64,000 nt of DNA from a virus (IMGVR_UViG_3300031772_000001:64001-128000), one strand, 5' to 3'; numbered from the stretch's first letter, positions 3,129 to 44,693 are shown. Made by a program: numbers and translations. The notes: generated by a model from the letters alone, not told the origin.

Positions 3129-3302
3129 TCAAACCTTCTCTGTCAAATCCTCTACCCGTACCCACTTCCTTGCCCCTCCAAACAACTCCACAACGACAAG
3201 AGCACCCTTCTCCTCTAAAGCAACAACCTTCCCAATGTATAGAATACCCATACCACACGTCCACTGAACCATCATACCCGGCTTCACAGCTTCTCTTTTC
3301 AC
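3129..3302 (-). CDS. small SH3/KOW-like protein (57 aa, not in track)
   Basis: GTG start overlapping upstream TGA; MKREAVKPGMMVQW...GKVVALEEKGALVVVELFGGARKWVRVEDL. Confidence 0.5.
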   Translation of the reverse strand: MKREAVKPGMMVQWTCGMGILYIGKVVALEEKGALVVVELFGGARKWVRVEDLTEKV

Positions 3303-3568
3303 AATTCCCCCAAAACCTTTTCAAGATTAACGATAATATCTTCTCGCTGTTCCTTCTCCTTAGAAGTTAGATACCCACGTACTAACACCACAATCTTTGA
3401 ATATATGTTCTCCATTATCTCCAAATCAACCCCTACTATCACGCCCTTATCCTGCAACAACTTTTGAAGATATGAAATTCCTCGAAGATCCTTCGCTTCT
3501 TCAACTGTGATGATGTTCTTTTTTGTGAGCAGGTGTAATAATGCTATATGTGAAATATTGTCTGTCAT
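3299..3568 (-). CDS. hypothetical protein
   Basis: 89-aa ORF with AGGAAAGG upstream. Confidence 0.55.
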   Translation of the reverse strand: MTDNISHIALLHLLTKKNIITVEEAKDLRGISYLQKLLQDKGVIVGVDLEIMENIYSKIVVLVRGYLTSKEKEQREDIIVNLEKVLGEL

Positions 3569-16196: not shown

Positions 16197-16271
16197 TTGC
16201 GGGAACTGGATTTGAACCAGTGATGCATGGTTATGAGCCATGTGTCTTAGACCGGGCTAGACGACCCCGCA
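16197..16271 (-). tRNA. tRNA-Met(CAU), CCA not encoded
   Basis: acceptor TGCGGGG/TCCCGCA, D-stem GTCT/AGAC, anticodon arm CATGG-CTCATAA-CCATG, T-arm ACTGG-TTCAAAT-CCAGT. Confidence 0.9.
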
Positions 16272-27775: not shown

Positions 27776-28603
27776 TCAGCACTTGGAGAATGAGCACCGC
27801 CTACAGATCACACACCCCTCCTCATGCCCCAACGCAGCCCGACACTCAGGGCATAACCCCCGCTGTATCCAGTAATCCTCACCCTTGCCCTCATCACCAA
27901 CGTAGGGCACACCAGCCGTAAAAAACTTTGCTCTCTCCTTCGCCTGACTCAACCGAATAGGTTCCAACAAAGGAGATCCTACAGAAATGTCACTTATTTC
28001 AAAACTTTTCACTCCAGCAACATTGTCTTTGACCACACTCATGTCCGCTGGAAGATCCACCAGAAGATCCTCTGGCAACACATCAAACGGTTCTGATTTC
28101 TCAAAAATCTCAGACAATCTTGATTTTTCGATCCTATCCTTCGCAAGTTCTACGGTCTTACCTCGCAAATCATCTACGGATGAAAAAATCGCCCTCAACT
28201 CATCTTGATGATCCTCAAAAAACTTTTGCGCTTGTAAAGTCTTTCGTATCGCAGATGCAAGTGCCTTACTACAAGAACTATTTCCAGTTTTCTTAAACCC
28301 CTCATCACGCCCTGCACGATACCGAGCCGTAGGACATATCTCAGACTCAAGCTGATCCAAAATCTCCTCAATAGGGACATTGTTTTGTAAAGCGAGAGAG
28401 ACAAGCCGCCCCGTCATTTTTGTATTTGAAGAACACCCGCCCTTAGAAGATGACCCACAAAACACTTCGACCAGCTTCACCTTATCATGCCAATTAAACT
28501 TGATAGAGAAAAAAGATGACCCACAACCTGTCTGCTCCTTGAAAGTCAACCCGATAGTAGGATTATCCCTATGGACTCTTGCGTCTGTAAGACCGTCACC
28601 CAT
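27776..28603 (-). CDS. stand-alone TSCPD domain protein (class II RNR C-terminal/NrdJb-like)
   Basis: TGCG, EVF, GRLVSLALQ..VP.EEILDQLE.., SC.KAL, terminal CPEC...EEGCVICRRCSFSKC. Confidence 0.82.
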   Translation of the reverse strand: MGDGLTDARVHRDNPTIGLTFKEQTGCGSSFFSIKFNWHDKVKLVEVFCGSSSKGGCSSNTKMTGRLVSLALQNNVPIEEILDQLESEICPTARYRAGRDEGFKKTGNSSCSKALASAIRKTLQAQKFFEDHQDELRAIFSSVDDLRGKTVELAKDRIEKSRLSEIFEKSEPFDVLPEDLLVDLPADMSVVKDNVAGVKSFEISDISVGSPLLEPIRLSQAKERAKFFTAGVPYVGDEGKGEDYWIQRGLCPECRAALGHEEGCVICRRCSFSKC

Positions 28604-28784: not shown

Positions 28785-28817
28785 TGGTAAAGTCTATCAC
28801 ACCTACACAACAAAAAT

Positions 28818-28993
28818 CGGGAAGACGGCAAGTTGGGAAATCCTAAGTACAACAACTAACAACAACCAATGAAGGTTTGTGTATGTAAGGTCAGCAACAA
28901 CAAGATAAATATAGCCCTACATTGCCACAACCATGACGTAAAGGAAATTCCCCGGCAACAAAGCAAGCCCTGTCACCCTTGCCGTCTATCCCG
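28818..28993 (-). ncRNA. candidate structured RNA with UUG-repeat loops
   Basis: 15-bp closing stem CGGGA(U)AGACGGCAAG/CUUGCCGUCUUCCCG, two nested stems, 3' U-tract. Confidence 0.7.
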
Positions 28994-29010
28994 CATTATC
29001 CCACGTACAC

Positions 29011-29292
29011 CTACTCAATCGGCTTCATCAGAGAGGCACAATCCACATCAACATCAACCATCGTCTTTGCATTGGACTCTTTGATTGCATTCTCAATCGT
29101 AAAGAGAGCGTTCTGAAGATCCGTTGTCAGCCTGTCTACCTTCTTAACATCATAGGTAGGCTCAATAATTTTCTTGTCATCCCCGTAATAAGATGTACGG
29201 GAAGTCAAAGAACCCTTCATGTTGACCAACTCAGACAACCGGCCACGAAGCTGCTTCTCCCGCACAAGCCACGAATTAACAGACGCTACCAT
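29011..29292 (-). CDS. DIP1984-like coiled-coil protein
   Basis: helical hairpin ...LRGRLSEL...YDVKKVD...IENAIKESNAKTMV. Confidence 0.6.
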   Translation of the reverse strand: MVASVNSWLVREKQLRGRLSELVNMKGSLTSRTSYYGDDKKIIEPTYDVKKVDRLTTDLQNALFTIENAIKESNAKTMVDVDVDCASLMKPIE

Positions 29293-29905: not shown

Positions 29906-31123
29906 CTACTTCTTACCGGGAACACTCAAATCCAAAGACAGATCACGCGCCGCCTTCGCAGTCATAATCTCCATGAAGTTCGTAGCACCATTTCCACCAC
30001 CAACCGACCCACCCATCACCGTAGTCGGAACAATCTGACCTGAATATTTTGAAAAAGCCTCTGACCACATCTGCTGAACAGCCTTGTATGCTTCGAGCTT
30101 CTTCTCCAAAGCACCATCCGCTGACATAATCAACTTACGCTTTTCAGCTTCACCCTCTCCCTCCAAAATGAGCTTCTTCTTTGTAAACTCCGCTGCATCC
30201 CGCATCAAAGAAGCAACAGCCTTTTCCTTCTCAGCATCAGTTACCGCTGCTTGTTTCTCCTGCTCCTTCTGATACTTCACCTTCATCACAGCAGCAAGAC
30301 CTTCAGCTTCCGCAGTCAACTTATCCTGATTCGCACGGATAGCGTTCTGCTTCGCTACCTCCGTCTGCAATGTCTGATCCCTCTGCTTCTTAATCATATC
30401 ATCCACTGCATTATCAAACTTCGGTACGTCAATCTGACACTGCGTTACTCGACACCCCAACTGCTCCAAAACTGTAGGATTTCTTAGTGGTTTATTCGTA
30501 CTGTCAAGCACAATCTCAGTCATTCGTACACGCTCGGAATCACCTACAGCCCTATGAATCCACTTATCAACAGAACGTGTCTGATAAGTACCATACATCA
30601 ACTGATCCTCAATCTCACTCTGCAAAACAGCAAGAGTAGTATAAGCCTCTCGTGCTGAATGAAGATTCGCTGAAAGTTTAATTGCATTCGCACCTACAGG
30701 CACAATGCCGTTACTCACAAGATGCTCAAACCCTCCGGCAAACTGACTTTTAATTGCCTTCATCTGTTCAGAATTTGACGGAAGAGAAACACGAAGTTGA
30801 GCACGGATCAAAGCACGAGTACCATCATTGAAAATAACAGGAACTTCATCAGCCTCAAAACTCTTGTGTCCCGGTGCCTGTCCAAAAACTACTGTCACTA
30901 CCTGACGGTACACATCCACATGACCAAGAAATTTCCCATACGGCCCTGCCGTTGTCTTTACATGAAGCGCACCACCAAGATCCTGCACAATCACAAACTC
31001 ACCGGCCTTATTGAACCCCACAATGTTAAGAGCAACAACCAAAGCAATCAACAAAGCACCACCAAGACCAATAAGAGACAAAATGGACTTGAGAGGCACA
31101 ACAGACGGATCATTCTTTGGCAT
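29906..31123 (-). CDS. SPFH/Band-7 membrane protein
   Basis: N-terminal TM, SPFH core, AE-rich coiled coil (AEAEG, EGEGEAE), ARDLSLDL end. Confidence 0.85.
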   Translation of the reverse strand: MPKNDPSVVPLKSILSLIGLGGALLIALVVALNIVGFNKAGEFVIVQDLGGALHVKTTAGPYGKFLGHVDVYRQVVTVVFGQAPGHKSFEADEVPVIFNDGTRALIRAQLRVSLPSNSEQMKAIKSQFAGGFEHLVSNGIVPVGANAIKLSANLHSAREAYTTLAVLQSEIEDQLMYGTYQTRSVDKWIHRAVGDSERVRMTEIVLDSTNKPLRNPTVLEQLGCRVTQCQIDVPKFDNAVDDMIKKQRDQTLQTEVAKQNAIRANQDKLTAEAEGLAAVMKVKYQKEQEKQAAVTDAEKEKAVASLMRDAAEFTKKKLILEGEGEAEKRKLIMSADGALEKKLEAYKAVQQMWSEAFSKYSGQIVPTTVMGGSVGGGNGATNFMEIMTAKAARDLSLDLSVPGKK

Positions 31124-31154: not shown

Positions 31155-31373
31155 TCACTGTCTCAGAAAAGAATCAACCTTCTTAGAAGCCTTGTCTGCT
31201 TTCTTCATATCGACCTTAGAAACCGTATCTGCCAAAGAAACATCCTCCTCTATTGCAGCTTTCTTAAAAAGAACTGCAATAAAAGGAACCCTTGACAAAA
31301 CCAACTTCCAAGACACAAAAAGAAAAGCAACCAAAATCAAAACAACAAGAAGAAACTCCATCAACATACGCAT
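31155..31373 (-). CDS. small membrane protein
   Basis: single TM, upstream of SPFH gene. Confidence 0.6.
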   Translation of the reverse strand: MRMLMEFLLVVLILVAFLFVSWKLVLSRVPFIAVLFKKAAIEEDVSLADTVSKVDMKKADKASKKVDSFLRQ

Positions 31374-32131: not shown

Positions 32132-32326
32132 TCAGCTACCCGACGATAGACTCCATGCACGGTATCCTCGGAAAAGAGAACAGTCTACCATAATCTGCCG
32201 TTACACAGGGGCTTTTTTAGGTACAGAGCATAACGCTCCCTGTACTTTGTTAGCCCGAAGCCGTCCAAAGATGTAAAGCTCCTACGTGAACGATCTCAAT
32301 ATTCAATGAAGTAGCATAAATCCTCC
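32132..32326 (-). ncRNA. candidate structured RNA beginning with RBS + 4-codon ORF
   Basis: GGAGGA-TTT-ATG CTA CTT CAT TGA; internal hairpins with G-U pairs. Confidence 0.5.
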
Positions 32327-32337
32327 AAAATCAAAAA

Positions 32338-32500
32338 AGAAACAAGATAACAGGGTTCTGCACGTTTACTCCCTACATTATCGGAAGCTGGTTTGCACTT
32401 TGCAGACAAGAAAGGGTTCCCTCAAAAAGTGCTGAAAGTCATCCCGAAAGATGGCAGTCAACAATGTTCCCACCTTTGCCACACCCTATTACTTGTTTCT
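32338..32500 (-). ncRNA. candidate small RNA with ~18-bp closing stem
   Basis: AGAAACAAG-UAAUAGGGU / ACCCUGUUAUCUUGUUUCU + U-tract; internal UUCG hairpin. Confidence 0.6.
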
Positions 32501-32504
32501 CTTG

Positions 32505-33026
32505 TTATACGATTTCAACGTACTCACTCATCAGGTTTATTGCCTCGTGATACCCGTCACATCTTGGCAACCTCTCGTAAAACTCGTCTGCCCTATCACC
32601 AAGACCAGCCCGATTGAGAGTCTTACCCACCTTCCCGGCAAGAACAAACACATTACCATCACCCTCAAGCAGCTTACACTCAGGCTTCAAAACCTCTACC
32701 TTCGGAGACTCCTCAGTCACTTGTTTTTGAAAATACTGAAGAGACTCGGAAGGTATCAACTCCCGATTATTCCGAAAATAATCATCATCCCAAGAAAAAC
32801 CACCCTGAAGATGCATTGGATGTATGGCGAGCTTCGGAATATCCTTGTCATCAAACTCAACAAGAACATCACTTCGTCCACCTTCACCACCCTTTCCGGG
32901 CATAGTATTAAACTGGTGAATGATCTTCGGAGAAGTAAAACCCAACTCAACAAAACCGCCGTAAAGCCCCTTCTTGTCCTCATCCGACTCAACAAGCAGA
33001 CCAATCATCACCGCTCTCGTTGACAT
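32505..33026 (-). CDS. hypothetical protein
   Basis: 173 aa; C-terminal DGNVFVLAGKV...L..AGL...YVEI module. Confidence 0.65.
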   Translation of the reverse strand: MSTRAVMIGLLVESDEDKKGLYGGFVELGFTSPKIIHQFNTMPGKGGEGGRSDVLVEFDDKDIPKLAIHPMHLQGGFSWDDDYFRNNRELIPSESLQYFQKQVTEESPKVEVLKPECKLLEGDGNVFVLAGKVGKTLNRAGLGDRADEFYERLPRCDGYHEAINLMSEYVEIV

Positions 33027-33054
33027 ACAACATCCTTTTCTTAAAAGTTAAAAA

Positions 33055-33215
33055 GAAAGGTTGACAACACCGCCGAGCGAAGCGAAGCCCTTGCAGGGGC
33101 CAAGGATTTATCAGTTGGAAATCTGCAACTTTCCCACTGTTTTAGCCTTGTGAAAAATTTGCTCATCACCCACATGCCATTTACGGTCAGAGGATCTGTA
33201 AGCTGTCAACCTCTC
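33055..33215 (-). ncRNA. candidate small RNA, 12-bp closing stem
   Basis: GAGAGGUUGACA/UGUCAACCUUUC + UUUU. Confidence 0.6.
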
Positions 33216-33226
33216 AAAGAACAAAA

Positions 33227-33348
33227 TGGCAGTAGACGTTAGCCTGATCGTCAACAAAAGACTTATGCTTCAGTTACATTGCTGTAACCAAGCCCTGTAC
33301 TCCACAACCATCCTTCTCAAATCAAGCCTTTGCCGTTGTCTACTGCCA
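33227..33348 (-). ncRNA. candidate small RNA, 11-bp closing stem
   Basis: UGGCAGUAGAC/GUCUACUGCCA + UUUU; GCAA tetraloop hairpin. Confidence 0.62.
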
Positions 33349-33361
33349 AAAACTTCTGTAA

Positions 33362-33452
33362 AATGGTGTGGAAGGCAACCTGCCCGATACGGTTGTTGTC
33401 TAAGAACCGCCGTCGCTTGATCGCATCCCTTAGACGGAATTTCCACACCATT
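33362..33452 (-). ncRNA. candidate small RNA, three-way junction
   Basis: AAUGGUGUGGAA/UUCCACACCAUU, GUCUAAG/CUUAGAC, CAACC/GGUUG. Confidence 0.62.
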
Positions 33453-44143: not shown

Positions 44144-44280
44144 AGAGAAACAGAACATTATATGTATGAGTGTTAGCCTTCTCCACTATGGTATTATCCA
44201 TAAAGGATTGAGCCAATTGACTCCGAAGAAAAGAAGAAGGTAGGAGCATCACCAAACACTCCAATAAACAAAGAAACAAG

Positions 44281-44693
44281 TGGAGGTGGGGGGAATTGAA
44301 CCCCCGTCCAGAAAATACTCAATATTGACATCTACGTGTGTAGTCTCAGTTAAGTGTCATGATAAGTATACTGAGGCCAAAATACTTACCACCAAGTTTC
44401 AGGTATTTTTCGGTGCTTTATGTCATGAAACCACCCACTTGCACCTAACCCTACTTTCGCCCACACACTCGGATACTTGTGTGGGCTAGTCACCTTTAGT
44501 TAGGCGACGCTGACAACTGGCATCGCCAGATCACACATCGCCGCGAAGCGAAGCGCAAAAGCAACACCAGCGTTGACCGTCGATTTCTCGGCAGCTAACA
44601 TCTCCCCCGGACGATTTATGAGGCCAACCGGGAGAACCCTCCTCAACACGCAGTCAATACTTTATACATTCTGTCGAAAACCAGATCACCCCC
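44281..44693 (-). ncRNA. ssrA: tmRNA
   Basis: 5' GGGGGTGATCTGGTTTTCGAC; 3' GACGGGGGTTCAATTCCCCCCACCTCCA; G3-U70 pair; tag frame 44592-44500 after UAGCU. Confidence 0.93.

What the first reader, a model, noticed from the sequence alone, without database searches (positions are those of the whole stretch)
28818..29292. DIP1984-like coiled-coil gene followed by a 176-nt RNA with UUG-repeat loops: candidate RNP module
Seen: 17 nt after the stop codon, a 15-bp stem with one bulge (28993-28978 / 28832-28818) encloses two nested helices, GGGAAUUUCCU/AGGAUUUCCC and GGUU-GUG..AUGUAGGG/CCUUACAU..CACAAACC, and is followed by AUUUUU. The unpaired segments are rich in UUG triplets: UUGCUUUGUUG, UUGUUGUUG, UUGGUUGUUGUUAGUUGUUG. 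The upstream 93-aa protein is a helical hairpin ending AIKESNAKT, which I recognise as DIP1984-like (function unknown). Knowledge: triplet repeats in single-stranded RNA are how ring proteins such as TRAP bind one repeat per subunit. Inference: the protein oligomerises on the adjacent RNA, forming a toxin/antitoxin-like, sponge or scaffold RNP.
Basis: partly seen in the sequence, partly recalled or inferred. Interest (0 to 1): 0.85.

Follow-up and report, generated by a model that had tools for sequence, protein, structure and literature searches.

The report
Phage protein gene with partner RNA
Right after a small helical-protein gene, this large phage encodes a folded RNA of about 180 bases with three exposed UUGUUGU sites; the same uncatalogued gene-plus-RNA pair recurs in dozens of unrelated environmental phages, so it is probably an undescribed protein-RNA module whose job is unknown.

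Summary
The stem, nested helices, U-run and UUG richness sit at the stated coordinates. This is the densest TTGTTG cluster in the 167-kb phage genome.

The 93-aa protein belongs to a family of more than 200 phage proteins of about 95 aa. In 36 of 49 distinct relatives' loci, the 250 nt after the gene are also TTGTTG-rich.

A covariance model built from nine other phages, without the window, finds the window's element at 44 bits (E about 1e-5). It is the only hit in the whole genome. The best score in 757 kb of UUG-rich control DNA is 21 bits.

- **Covariation:** 88% of cells pair, against 58% when shuffled and 40-48% when slid.
- **Strand:** G-U pairs outnumber A-C sixfold, so this is an RNA on the gene's strand.
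- **Catalogues:** no Rfam family matches.
- **Context:** no other neighbouring gene is conserved. A related phage that lacks the gene lacks the RNA too.
- **Protein:** only remotely DUF6847/DIP1984-like, below Pfam's cut-off. It is modelled as a homodimer.

Binding to the RNA is inferred, not shown. This scan found sister gene-plus-RNA modules (T5.085 type) on other DNA; I could not show that this one is related to them.

The parts
29011..29292 (-). 93-aa helical-hairpin protein gene. It belongs to a phage family of about 95 aa that is remotely DUF6847-like.
   Evidence: ORF. Family of 206 representatives at E <= 0.001, aligned as A3. AF2 model: helix 5-28, beta-hairpin 32-44, helix 49-76, pLDDT 79. 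Homodimer model 0.50 against controls 0.00.
28812..28993 (-). The whole structured RNA element, comprising closing stem P1, internal domains and the AUUUUU run.
   Evidence: Fold. Covariance model R1, built without the window, matches 28824-28986 at 44.2 bits, E 1.7e-5, over the full model. It is the only hit in the 167-kb genome.
28978..28993 (-). P1 5' strand (CGGGA-U-AGACGGCAAG), which holds the family's GAUAG-like junction motif.
   Evidence: The nine modelled P1 pairs all show double changes and 95.6% of cells pair.
28818..28832 (-). P1 3' strand (CUUGCCGUCUUCCCG).
28812..28817 (-). AUUUUU run after P1, so P1 plus this run looks like an intrinsic terminator.
   Evidence: A run of at least four U follows P1 in 12 of 23 family members.
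28954..28977 (-). P2 hairpin (GGUGACAGGG, loop CUUG, CUUUGUUGCC), rich in G-U pairs.
   Evidence: MFE fold. Aligned to the family's P2 by R1. P2 pairs covary (helices 2-3).
28942..28952 (-). P1b 5' strand (GGGAAUUUCCU), which continues the closing stem beyond the three-way junction.
   Evidence: A stem in the same position but of variable length was seen by eye in relatives. It is not part of the model.
28835..28844 (-). P1b 3' strand (AGGAUUUCCC).
28874..28932 (-). P4 long hairpin: 7 + 8 bp with an internal loop and a 24-nt apical loop.
   Evidence: Aligned to the family's P4a/P4b. 15 of its 16 modelled pairs show double changes (helices 4-5).
28895..28904 (-). UUGUUGU site 1 (CUUGUUGUUG) in the P4 apical loop.
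   Evidence: The best-conserved stretch of the family, consensus yUUGUUgU.
28847..28869 (-). UUGUUGU sites 2 and 3: the single-stranded 3' tract UUGGUUGUUGUUAGUUGUUGUAC.
   Evidence: Unpaired apart from four weak pairs to nearby bases in the MFE fold. Family consensus U..Uu.UUr.UUGUUgu.a. In three relatives the two tracts are separated by an inserted hairpin.

Best explanation
This is a self-contained, two-part accessory module of large environmental phages.

The first part is a protein of about 95 aa. It is a helical hairpin with a beta-hairpin tip, and it probably forms a symmetric dimer. The second part is a dedicated structured RNA of about 180-220 nt that starts 10-25 nt after the stop codon and belongs to no catalogued family.

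The RNA is most likely made as the 3' extension of the gene's own transcript. In this phage its 3' end would be set by the closing stem plus U-run. In some other phages it would be set by an abutting tRNA gene.

The fold is a three-way junction (P1, P2, P1b) that holds a long hairpin. It displays three copies of an almost invariant UUGUUGU motif as single strands: one in the apical loop and two in the 3' tract.

My working mechanism is that copies of the protein dock on these three sites, giving a ribonucleoprotein particle that acts on the host or on competing elements.

- **Shown:** the RNA family, its structure, its strand, and its linkage to the gene.
- **Inferred:** co-transcription, protein-RNA binding, and any downstream function.
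For: - **Linkage.** 59 fetched loci carry the family gene. Of 49 distinct downstream regions, 36 have at least two TTGTTG within 250 nt, against about 0.1-0.3 per 250 nt elsewhere in most of the same loci. The motifs peak 100-200 nt after the stop codon.
- **Objective membership.** Model R1 was built from nine other phages. It finds 14 further independent members, all on the gene's strand, just downstream of the gene. The window scores 44.2 bits.
- **Specificity.** The best score in 757 kb of viral DNA chosen to contain the UUG pattern is 21.2 bits. There is a single hit in the whole genome. A related 157-kb phage that lacks the gene has no hit.
- **Structure.** 88.4% of cells pair, against 57.5% when shuffled (0 of 500 shuffles reach it) and 40-48% when partners are slid. 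31 of 32 pairs show double changes.
- **Alignment-free check.** The cognate 3' region ranks in the top 3 of 48 for 19 of the 5' regions, where about 3 would be expected.
- **RNA on the gene's strand.** There are 93 G-U cells against 15 A-C cells. The sense strand folds better than the antisense in 23 of 23 members.
- **Not a composition effect.** The UUG tracts persist in a relative whose downstream region is G+C-rich (L138).
- **Only the pair is conserved.** No neighbouring gene family is shared beyond 3-4 closely related loci.
- **Variable slot.** The module sits between genes that are conserved in a related phage, which carries other genes there.
- **Protein self-association.** The homodimer score is 0.50 against a best control of 0.00, a mark reached by 20 of 30 proteins solved as pairs and 1 of 23 solved as single chains. 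The three runs agree on the contacts and pLDDT is 78. My own alignment was used, so those counts hold only roughly.
- **Processing hint.** The RNA abuts a tRNA gene in two loci, L160 and L145.
Against: - No experiment or model here tests protein-RNA contact.
- The protein has as many acidic as basic residues (read) and has no known RNA-binding fold. Only generic helical-hairpin matches were found.
- About one locus in ten has the gene directly followed by another ORF and no UUG element. One such phage is a complete 194-kb genome with no credible R1 hit anywhere. The protein can therefore exist without a recognisable RNA.
- Three binding sites do not fit neatly with a two-fold dimer.
- The covariation counts come from alignments fitted to the model, which lean towards the modelled structure.
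Confidence: 0.45

Rival explanations
1. The RNA is a trans-acting regulatory RNA. Its G/U-rich single strands would act as seeds that pair with C/A-rich stretches in host or phage mRNAs, in the manner of the GcvB R1 region (own knowledge). The protein would then be a separate product of the same operon, or a helper.
For: - The G/U-rich tracts are conserved and single-stranded.
- In the window and in 12 of 23 members the RNA ends in a stem plus U-run.
- The sequence of the tracts is conserved, not only their structure.
Against: - In this phage's own genome, only 2 of 37 CAACAA sites on the coding strand lie near a start codon, where about 4-5 would be expected. The best duplex partners of the 3' tract lie inside genes.
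- Rfam's GcvB and every other family fail to match.
- This reading does not explain the tight, exclusive linkage to one protein family across unrelated phages.
- Host targets could not be tested because the host is unknown.
Confidence: 0.2
2. The RNA is a decoy or sponge for a host single-strand RNA-binding factor or defence sensor that recognises U/G-rich heptamers. Cold-shock-domain proteins are one example (own knowledge). The phage protein would help to load or protect it.
For: - There are three near-identical exposed sites on a stable scaffold.
- The module behaves as an accessory element, present or absent between related phages.
- The motif is conserved across phages of very different base composition.
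Against: - No host factor is identified and the host is unknown.
- This reading does not by itself explain why a specific small protein always accompanies the RNA.
Confidence: 0.13
3. The element is purely cis-acting. It would be an elaborate 3' untranslated region and terminator that stabilises the upstream gene's mRNA or controls its expression, possibly through autoregulation, or that insulates it from downstream genes.
For: - It starts 17 nt after the stop codon and ends in a stem plus U-run.
- A related phage has a large hairpin plus U-run at the equivalent place after a different small gene.
Against: - Half of the members lack a U-run.
- Terminators do not need about 180 nt, a three-way junction and three invariant sequence motifs.
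- The promoter/terminator scan did not call it.
Confidence: 0.1
4. The module is linked to tRNA biology. The RNA would be a tRNA-processing by-product, a mimic, or a partner of phage tRNA clusters.
For: - tRNA genes lie on the same strand within the fetched flanks in 10 of 59 loci.
- The RNA directly abuts a tRNA in L160 and L145.
- One family gene sits inside an array of 11 tRNAs.
Against: - Most loci have no tRNA nearby, including the window, where the nearest tRNA is 12 kb away.
- ARAGORN and Rfam see no tRNA-like fold in the element.
- The gene inside the tRNA array lacks the UUG RNA.
Confidence: 0.07
5. The element works at the DNA level. The TTGTTG tracts would be iterons, an origin or a protein-binding site, and the inverted repeats would be incidental.
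For: TTGTTG tracts are clustered in a 226-bp intergenic region.
Against: - The helices keep pairing through compensatory changes while their sequences differ.
- G-U pairs outnumber A-C pairs 93 to 15, and the sense strand always folds better. Double-stranded DNA would not select for either.
Confidence: 0.02

Closest known systems
DUF6847 / DIP1984 family (Pfam PF20935; structure 3KDQ, which I take to be DIP1984 from memory)
   Same: Both are helical hairpins. 37 of 70 relatives hit PF20935. ESM Atlas neighbours include clusters that carry DUF6847.
   Different: - Every examined hit is below the curated cut-off of 27 bits.
- In the six members examined the matches cover only profile positions 65-141 of 141.
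- The window's own protein has no hit at E <= 1.
- The match to 3KDQ has E = 5.
- That family's function is itself unknown, and I know of no RNA partner described for it.
T5.085 / PHROG_1491 gene plus heptad-repeat RNA
   Same: The layout is the same: a small helical phage protein gene directly followed by a stem-closed, uncatalogued RNA with short repeated units, sometimes beside tRNA genes. 10 of 70 relatives hit phrog_1491, and in the two examined the match covers positions 5-90 of 211.
   Different: - That protein is twice as long, about 210 aa.
- hhalign of the family against T5.085 gives a probability of only 7%.
- phrog_1491 finds nothing in this genome at E <= 1.
- The T5 RNA is about 360 nt and A-rich, with no UUGUUG. 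R1 does not detect it.
VIPR systems (Vipr protein plus vrRNA; bioRxiv 10.64898/2026.04.26.720920 and 10.64898/2026.04.26.720927)
   Same: Both are phage-encoded minimal loci in which a protein gene is flanked by a repeat-bearing non-coding RNA. In VIPR the protein oligomerises along that RNA.
   Different: - Vipr is a RAMP, with an RRM core, a G-loop and a thumb. Here the fold is helix, beta-hairpin, helix.
- vrRNAs carry 9-16 YNNGG pentamers with hypervariable NN positions. Here there are three nearly invariant UUGUUGU sites and no variable code.
TRAP with the trp leader, and HutP with the hut leader (own knowledge)
   Same: Both involve several short single-stranded triplet-type motifs that could each bind one subunit of a multimer.
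   Different: Those proteins are ring-forming proteins that read 6-11 regularly spaced (G/U)AG or UAG triplets in a 5' leader to control termination. Here there is a helical-hairpin dimer model and three sites on a 3' element with a large scaffold.
GcvB-type small RNAs with G/U-rich seeds (own knowledge)
   Same: Both have a single-stranded G/U-rich region, and in this phage a terminator-like 3' end.
   Different: There is no Rfam match and no C/A-rich targets at start codons in the phage. The element is tied to a protein gene and is much more structured.
Type III toxin-antitoxin systems such as ToxIN (own knowledge)
   Same: Both are a protein plus an adjacent non-coding RNA with repeats on a mobile element.
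   Different: In those systems the RNA precedes the toxin gene and consists of long tandem repeats processed by an endoribonuclease toxin. Here the order is reversed, there is no tandem array, and the fold is not a nuclease fold.

Membership tests
UUGUUGU RNA family defined here (model R1) | Full-length match to a covariance model built without the window, scoring above the noise level of control DNA. | tested here: met
   44.2 bits, E 1.7e-5, model positions 1-195. Controls reach at most 21.2 bits.
UUGUUGU RNA family defined here (model R1) | Position directly downstream of a family protein gene, on the same strand. | tested here: met
   The element starts 17 nt after the stop codon. The same arrangement holds for every R1 hit of 28 bits or more.
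DUF6847 / DIP1984 (PF20935) | Score at or above Pfam's gathering cut-off of 27 bits. | tested here: not met
   The window's protein has no hit at E <= 1. Six relatives score 13-22 bits.
DUF6847 / DIP1984 (PF20935) | Coverage of the whole 141-position domain. | tested here: not met
   In the six relatives examined, only positions 65-141 are matched. The protein has 93 aa.
DIP1984 family (NCBIfam) | Match to the NCBIfam model. | tested here: not met
   No NCBIfam family at E <= 1.
T5.085 / PHROG_1491 module | Protein homology to phrog_1491 or to T5.085. | tested here: inconclusive
   10 of 70 relatives hit phrog_1491 weakly. The window's genome has no match at E <= 1. hhalign against T5.085 gives a probability of 7%.
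T5.085 / PHROG_1491 module | Homologous downstream RNA. | tested here: not met
   The T5 spacer is A-rich and lacks UUGUUG. R1 finds no hit in the T5 region.
VIPR | A RAMP-fold Vipr protein with RRM core, G-loop and thumb. | tested here: not met
   The AF2 model is helix, beta-hairpin, helix. Fold searches return helical hairpins only.
VIPR | A vrRNA with 9-16 YNNGG pentamers and hypervariable NN positions. | tested here: not met
   No tandem array is called. The tracts are nearly invariant UUGUUGU.
Type III toxin-antitoxin | A tandem-repeat RNA upstream of an endoribonuclease toxin gene. | tested here: not met
   The RNA lies downstream of the gene. TRF finds no array. Only helical-hairpin folds matched.
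Any Rfam 15 family (including GcvB, skipping-rope, RAGATH-27, pRNA, 6S, Y RNA-like) | Match to a covariance model. | tested here: not met
   No hit at E <= 10 on the element. No hit on the element at E <= 1 in 20 loci of relatives.
Intrinsic terminator | A G+C-rich stem directly followed by a U-run. | tested here: inconclusive
   A 15-bp stem plus AUUUUU is present, but the stem encloses 145 nt and the scan did not call it. A U-run follows P1 in 12 of 23 members.
GcvB-like trans-acting small RNA | C/A-rich targets at translation start regions. | tested here: inconclusive
   No enrichment was found in the phage's own genome. Host targets could not be tested.

The most novel reading that the evidence does not exclude
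A new class of phage ribonucleoprotein. A dimeric helical-hairpin protein would read invariant UUGUUGU sites displayed on a dedicated scaffold RNA. This would be a compact sister of the larger T5.085-type gene-plus-repeat-RNA modules, used in conflict with the host or with rival mobile elements.
Probability: 0.25. Interest if true: 0.85.

Novelty: categorically new. Interest (0 to 1): 0.78.

Why it matters
Phage-encoded protein-RNA pairs have repeatedly turned out to be new biology or new tools. Examples are CRISPR-like systems, retrons, type III toxin-antitoxin systems and, in 2026, VIPR.

Here a small protein of unknown function and a well-folded RNA, found in no catalogue, travel together through dozens of unrelated large phages. 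Nothing else in their neighbourhoods is conserved, which is the signature of a two-part machine.

The module is only about 500 bp, so it can be synthesised and tested in a laboratory strain. The three invariant UUGUUGU sites give an obvious mutational handle.

It also gives the first functional lead for the DUF6847/DIP1984-like helical-hairpin proteins. It may tie in with the longer T5-type modules seen elsewhere in this scan, and those sit in a model phage.

Tried and rejected
- **Rfam:** nothing on the element at the gathering threshold over the window, at E <= 10 on the element, or at E <= 1 on 20 loci of relatives.
- **tRNA/tmRNA scan:** nothing in the element.
- **GenBank phages:** blastn of the 4-kb neighbourhood found no match. 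tblastn with two family members found no match. No cultured phage carrying the module was found.
- **Close strains (L002-L007):** the RNA is 100% identical, so these are uninformative.
- **Exact-pattern scan of viral contigs** for GTTGTTGT..TTGTTGTA: 117 stretches matched, none with the family gene. This was a dead end for discovery, but 80 of these loci served later as a specificity control.
- **RNAalifold on a raw MAFFT alignment** of 15 full-length RNAs predicted no pairs, because the helices were misaligned.
- **Second-generation model:** Divergent variants that are visibly stem-closed and UUG-rich therefore remain outside the model (for example L010, L133, L138, L139, L182, L184).
- **Sequencing runs:** no RNA holder was listed, so no read mapping was done.
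- **Fold searches** (Foldseek on PDB, VIA-align wide): only generic helical-hairpin matches such as prefoldin beta, the seryl-tRNA synthetase arm, UvsY and ribosomal L29-like chains, none standing out.
- **PDB sequence searches:** nothing significant.
- **Literature:** searches for DIP1984, DUF6847 and septicolysin, and for UUGUUGU strings, found nothing relevant. A 2026 preprint that lists 20,149 RNA clusters with candidate protein partners does not name this pair in its text.
- **Rejected readings:** a small peptide encoded by the UUG tracts (there is helix covariation, and no minus-strand ORF of 40 aa or more lies in the spacer); a retron (no reverse transcriptase nearby); and a skipping-rope tRNA mimic (no Rfam hit; paper outline).

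Full report
**Setting.** The window is bases 64001-128000 of a 167,660-bp IMG/VR phage genome with direct terminal repeats. Nearly all genes lie on the minus strand. That strand is G- and T-rich and C-poor: T 31%, G 26.5%, C 15%. The window also holds a tmRNA gene and a tRNA-Met gene. No GenBank phage resembles the neighbourhood.

**The observation.** On the minus strand the 93-aa ORF (29292-29011) ends in TAG. Seventeen nt later a 15-bp stem with one bulged U begins, 28993-28978 pairing with 28832-28818. AUUUUU follows it.

RNAfold reproduces this stem and the inner helix GGGAA..UCCU/AGGA.UUCCC. The second nested helix is visible by reading the sequence. The MFE is -66.4 kcal/mol, z = -3.97, with 0 of 200 shuffles folding as well.

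The element holds 13 TTG against a genome mean of 5.6 per 176 nt, and 5 TTGTTG where 0.24 are expected. It is the densest TTGTTG cluster in the genome.

Two caveats apply. Thermodynamic stability alone does not single the element out genome-wide.

**The protein family.** The protein itself matches no Pfam, NCBIfam or PHROG family convincingly. A word-based search found one relative at 59% identity. An exhaustive profile search of 1.84 billion representatives found 206 proteins at E <= 0.001, nearly all 90-100 aa.

Their alignment (A3) shows four invariant residues, R18, D53, K71 and N74, and a consensus EPxYDVKxVD...NALFxIDxAIKxSNAxT.

37 of 70 members hit PF20935 (DUF6847) weakly. In the six members examined the match covers only profile positions 65-141 of 141, at 13-22 bits against a cut-off of 27. 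Ten members hit phrog_1491, and in the two examined the match covers its first 90 positions. ESM Atlas neighbours are viral clusters, some carrying DUF6847.

The AF2 model (pLDDT 79) is helix 5-28, beta-hairpin 32-44, helix 49-76. Fold searches give only generic helical hairpins.

A two-copy model passes its controls. The score is 0.50 against a best control of 0.00, a mark reached by 20 of 30 proteins solved as pairs and 1 of 23 solved as single chains. The three runs agree on contacts and pLDDT is 78. My own alignment was used, so those counts hold only roughly. The modelled interface includes the invariant R18, K71 and N74.

'DIP1984-like' is therefore a remote resemblance to half of that domain, not membership.

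**The RNA is conserved with the gene.**
- Contigs holding relatives showed 185-240-nt gene-free gaps after the gene. Each gap had its own long closing stem and UUGUUG tracts.
- Degenerate-peptide scans then fetched 10 viral loci, 45 metagenomic loci and 1 MAG locus.
- Of 49 distinct downstream regions of at least 200 nt, 36 have two or more TTGTTG in the first 250 nt. Most of the same loci have about 0.1-0.3 per 250 nt elsewhere. The motifs peak 100-200 nt after the stop codon.
- The tracts persist in a relative whose downstream region is G+C-rich (L138), so they are not a by-product of this phage's base composition.

Reading the sequences gives a common plan:
1. An outer stem, P1.
2. An invariant UAG(G) at a three-way junction.
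3. A hairpin, P2.
4. GAAAAG leading into a variable continuation stem, P1b.
5. UGGCUG opening a long hairpin, P4, whose loop holds yUUGUUgU.
6. CAAAGCC closing P4.
7. Two single-stranded UUGUUGU tracts, the second ending UUGUUGUAAC. In three relatives an inserted hairpin separates them.
8. The 3' strands of P1b and P1, often followed by a U-run.

**Formal test.**
- I built covariance model R1 (195 positions, 32 pairs) from nine relatives, leaving the window out.
- Over the window plus 61 loci it returned 36 hits at E <= 1. All are on the gene's strand, downstream of the gene.
- The window's element (28824-28986) scored 44.2 bits, E 1.7e-5, over the full model.
- Fourteen independent non-seed members score 28 bits or more.
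- In 757 kb of viral DNA chosen because it contains the UUG pattern, plus the T5 region and the related phage's locus, the best score was 21.2 bits.
- In the whole 167-kb genome the element is the only hit. A related 157-kb phage that lacks the gene has none.

**Covariation.** On the 23 confident members, 88.4% of cells form standard pairs. The shuffled figure is 57.5% (0 of 500 shuffles reach the observed value), and sliding the partners gives 40-48%. 31 of 32 pairs show changes on both sides, with 218 such cells against 67 when shuffled (similar on 36 hits).

These alignments are fitted to the model, which favours the structure. As an alignment-free check I compared the duplex energy between the first 45 nt and nt 140-260 of each downstream region with every other region's 3' part. 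The cognate partner ranks in the top 3 of 48 for 19 sequences, where about 3 would be expected.

G-U cells outnumber A-C cells 93 to 15, and the sense strand folds better than the antisense in 23 of 23 members. The structure therefore belongs to an RNA made from the gene's strand, not to DNA.

**Context.**
- No neighbouring gene family is shared beyond 3-4 closely related loci. The pair is the unit.
- In the related phage L009 the flanking genes are conserved: a 194-aa homologue of the upstream 175-aa gene, and the TSCPD gene at 55% identity. The slot between them holds other genes. The module therefore behaves as an accessory insertion.
- tRNA genes lie on the same strand within the flanks in 10 of 59 loci. 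The RNA directly abuts a tRNA in L160 and L145.
- A U-run follows P1 in 12 of 23 members. I infer that the RNA is co-transcribed with the gene and ends either by termination or by processing.
- About one locus in ten has the gene but no UUG element. One of these is a complete 194-kb phage with no credible R1 hit anywhere.
- Among 185,579 species genomes, only one MAG contig carries the gene, and the RNA is there too.

**Mechanism.** The best-supported reading is a dedicated protein-RNA pair in which the protein, likely a dimer, docks on the three exposed UUGUUGU sites. What is shown is the linkage and the RNA. Binding is inference.

- **Trans-acting G/U-rich seed RNA:** finds no C/A-rich targets at start codons in the phage itself, and it leaves the protein linkage unexplained.
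- **Decoy for a host factor, purely cis-acting 3' element, or tRNA-related role:** all remain possible.
- **DNA-level role:** disfavoured by the strand-specific wobble pairs.

**Comparison with what is known.**
- No Rfam family matches.
- VIPR systems pair a RAMP-fold protein with pentamer-repeat guide RNAs. Both defining features fail here.
- Type III toxin-antitoxin systems and TRAP/HutP-type systems differ in gene order, repeat anatomy and fold (own knowledge).
- Earlier notes of this scan describe a larger module on other genomes, a roughly 210-aa T5.085/PHROG_1491-type gene plus an RNA of 290-360 nt with 7-base units. I tested the link: hhalign against T5.085 gives a probability of 7%, the T5 spacer is A-rich without UUGUUG, and R1 does not see it.
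- The two modules share a layout and perhaps a distant protein ancestor through phrog_1491 and DUF6847, but they are not demonstrably the same family. One of those earlier notes carries a later check saying that part of it fell, which argues for caution about bold functional readings.

**Verdict.** Its function and the protein-RNA contact are untested.

Noticed in passing
window 44278-44693 (-) and 16197-16271 (-): The phage encodes a full-length tmRNA (128.6 bits; ARAGORN reads an unusual 30-residue tag) and a tRNA-Met.
   Followed up: no
whole window and genome: There is extreme strand asymmetry. Almost every long ORF lies on the minus strand, and that strand has G 26.5% against C 15% (GC skew about -0.3 on the plus strand throughout).
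   Followed up: partly
window 27776-28603 (-): A 275-aa protein has a TSCPD domain and resembles only the C-terminal end of B12-dependent ribonucleotide reductase (NF006417 positions 598-758). It ends in a Cys-rich tail, so it is a stand-alone fragment-like gene.
   Followed up: no
window 31171-31360 (-) and 32132-33452: The window 31171-31360 was the second most stable 190-nt fold in the genome after GC correction. A 27-nt imperfect inverted repeat lies at 31096-31122 / 31230-31256. An earlier first-reader note (e1-5653295) lists five more stem-closed candidate RNAs at 32132-33452. R1 and Rfam see nothing there.
   Followed up: no
L009:1557-1640 (+): In the related phage that lacks the module, a different 63-aa ORF is followed by an 11-bp stem enclosing about 50 nt and then UUUUUU. 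It is a smaller stem-closed element in the same genomic slot.
   Followed up: no
L012:410-520, also L143, L152, L013: In one clade the P2 loop and the 5' strand of P4 carry the same 8-9-nt direct repeat, (G/U)UACGCGGA. Either copy could pair with the 3' strand of P4. This is a possible alternative-pairing switch, seen by eye only.
   Followed up: no
L175 (Ga0334722_10000083, 135,852 bp): A family gene sits inside an array of 11 same-strand tRNA genes, but no UUG-rich RNA lies downstream of it.
   Followed up: no
L188 (phage T5, AY543070) 849-1567 and 3143-3505: The T5 record annotates a 719-nt 'RNAX, stable RNA with unknown functions' next to tRNA-Arg. It leaves a gene-free gap of about 360 nt after T5.085. 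Earlier notes of this scan call that gap a knotted repeat RNA.
   Followed up: partly
L189 (JAIWAJ010000023.1): The only hit among 185,579 species genomes is an 11.9-kb contig binned into a Methanosarcinales MAG. It carries both the gene and the RNA (42 bits) and may be a phage contig binned by mistake.
   Followed up: partly
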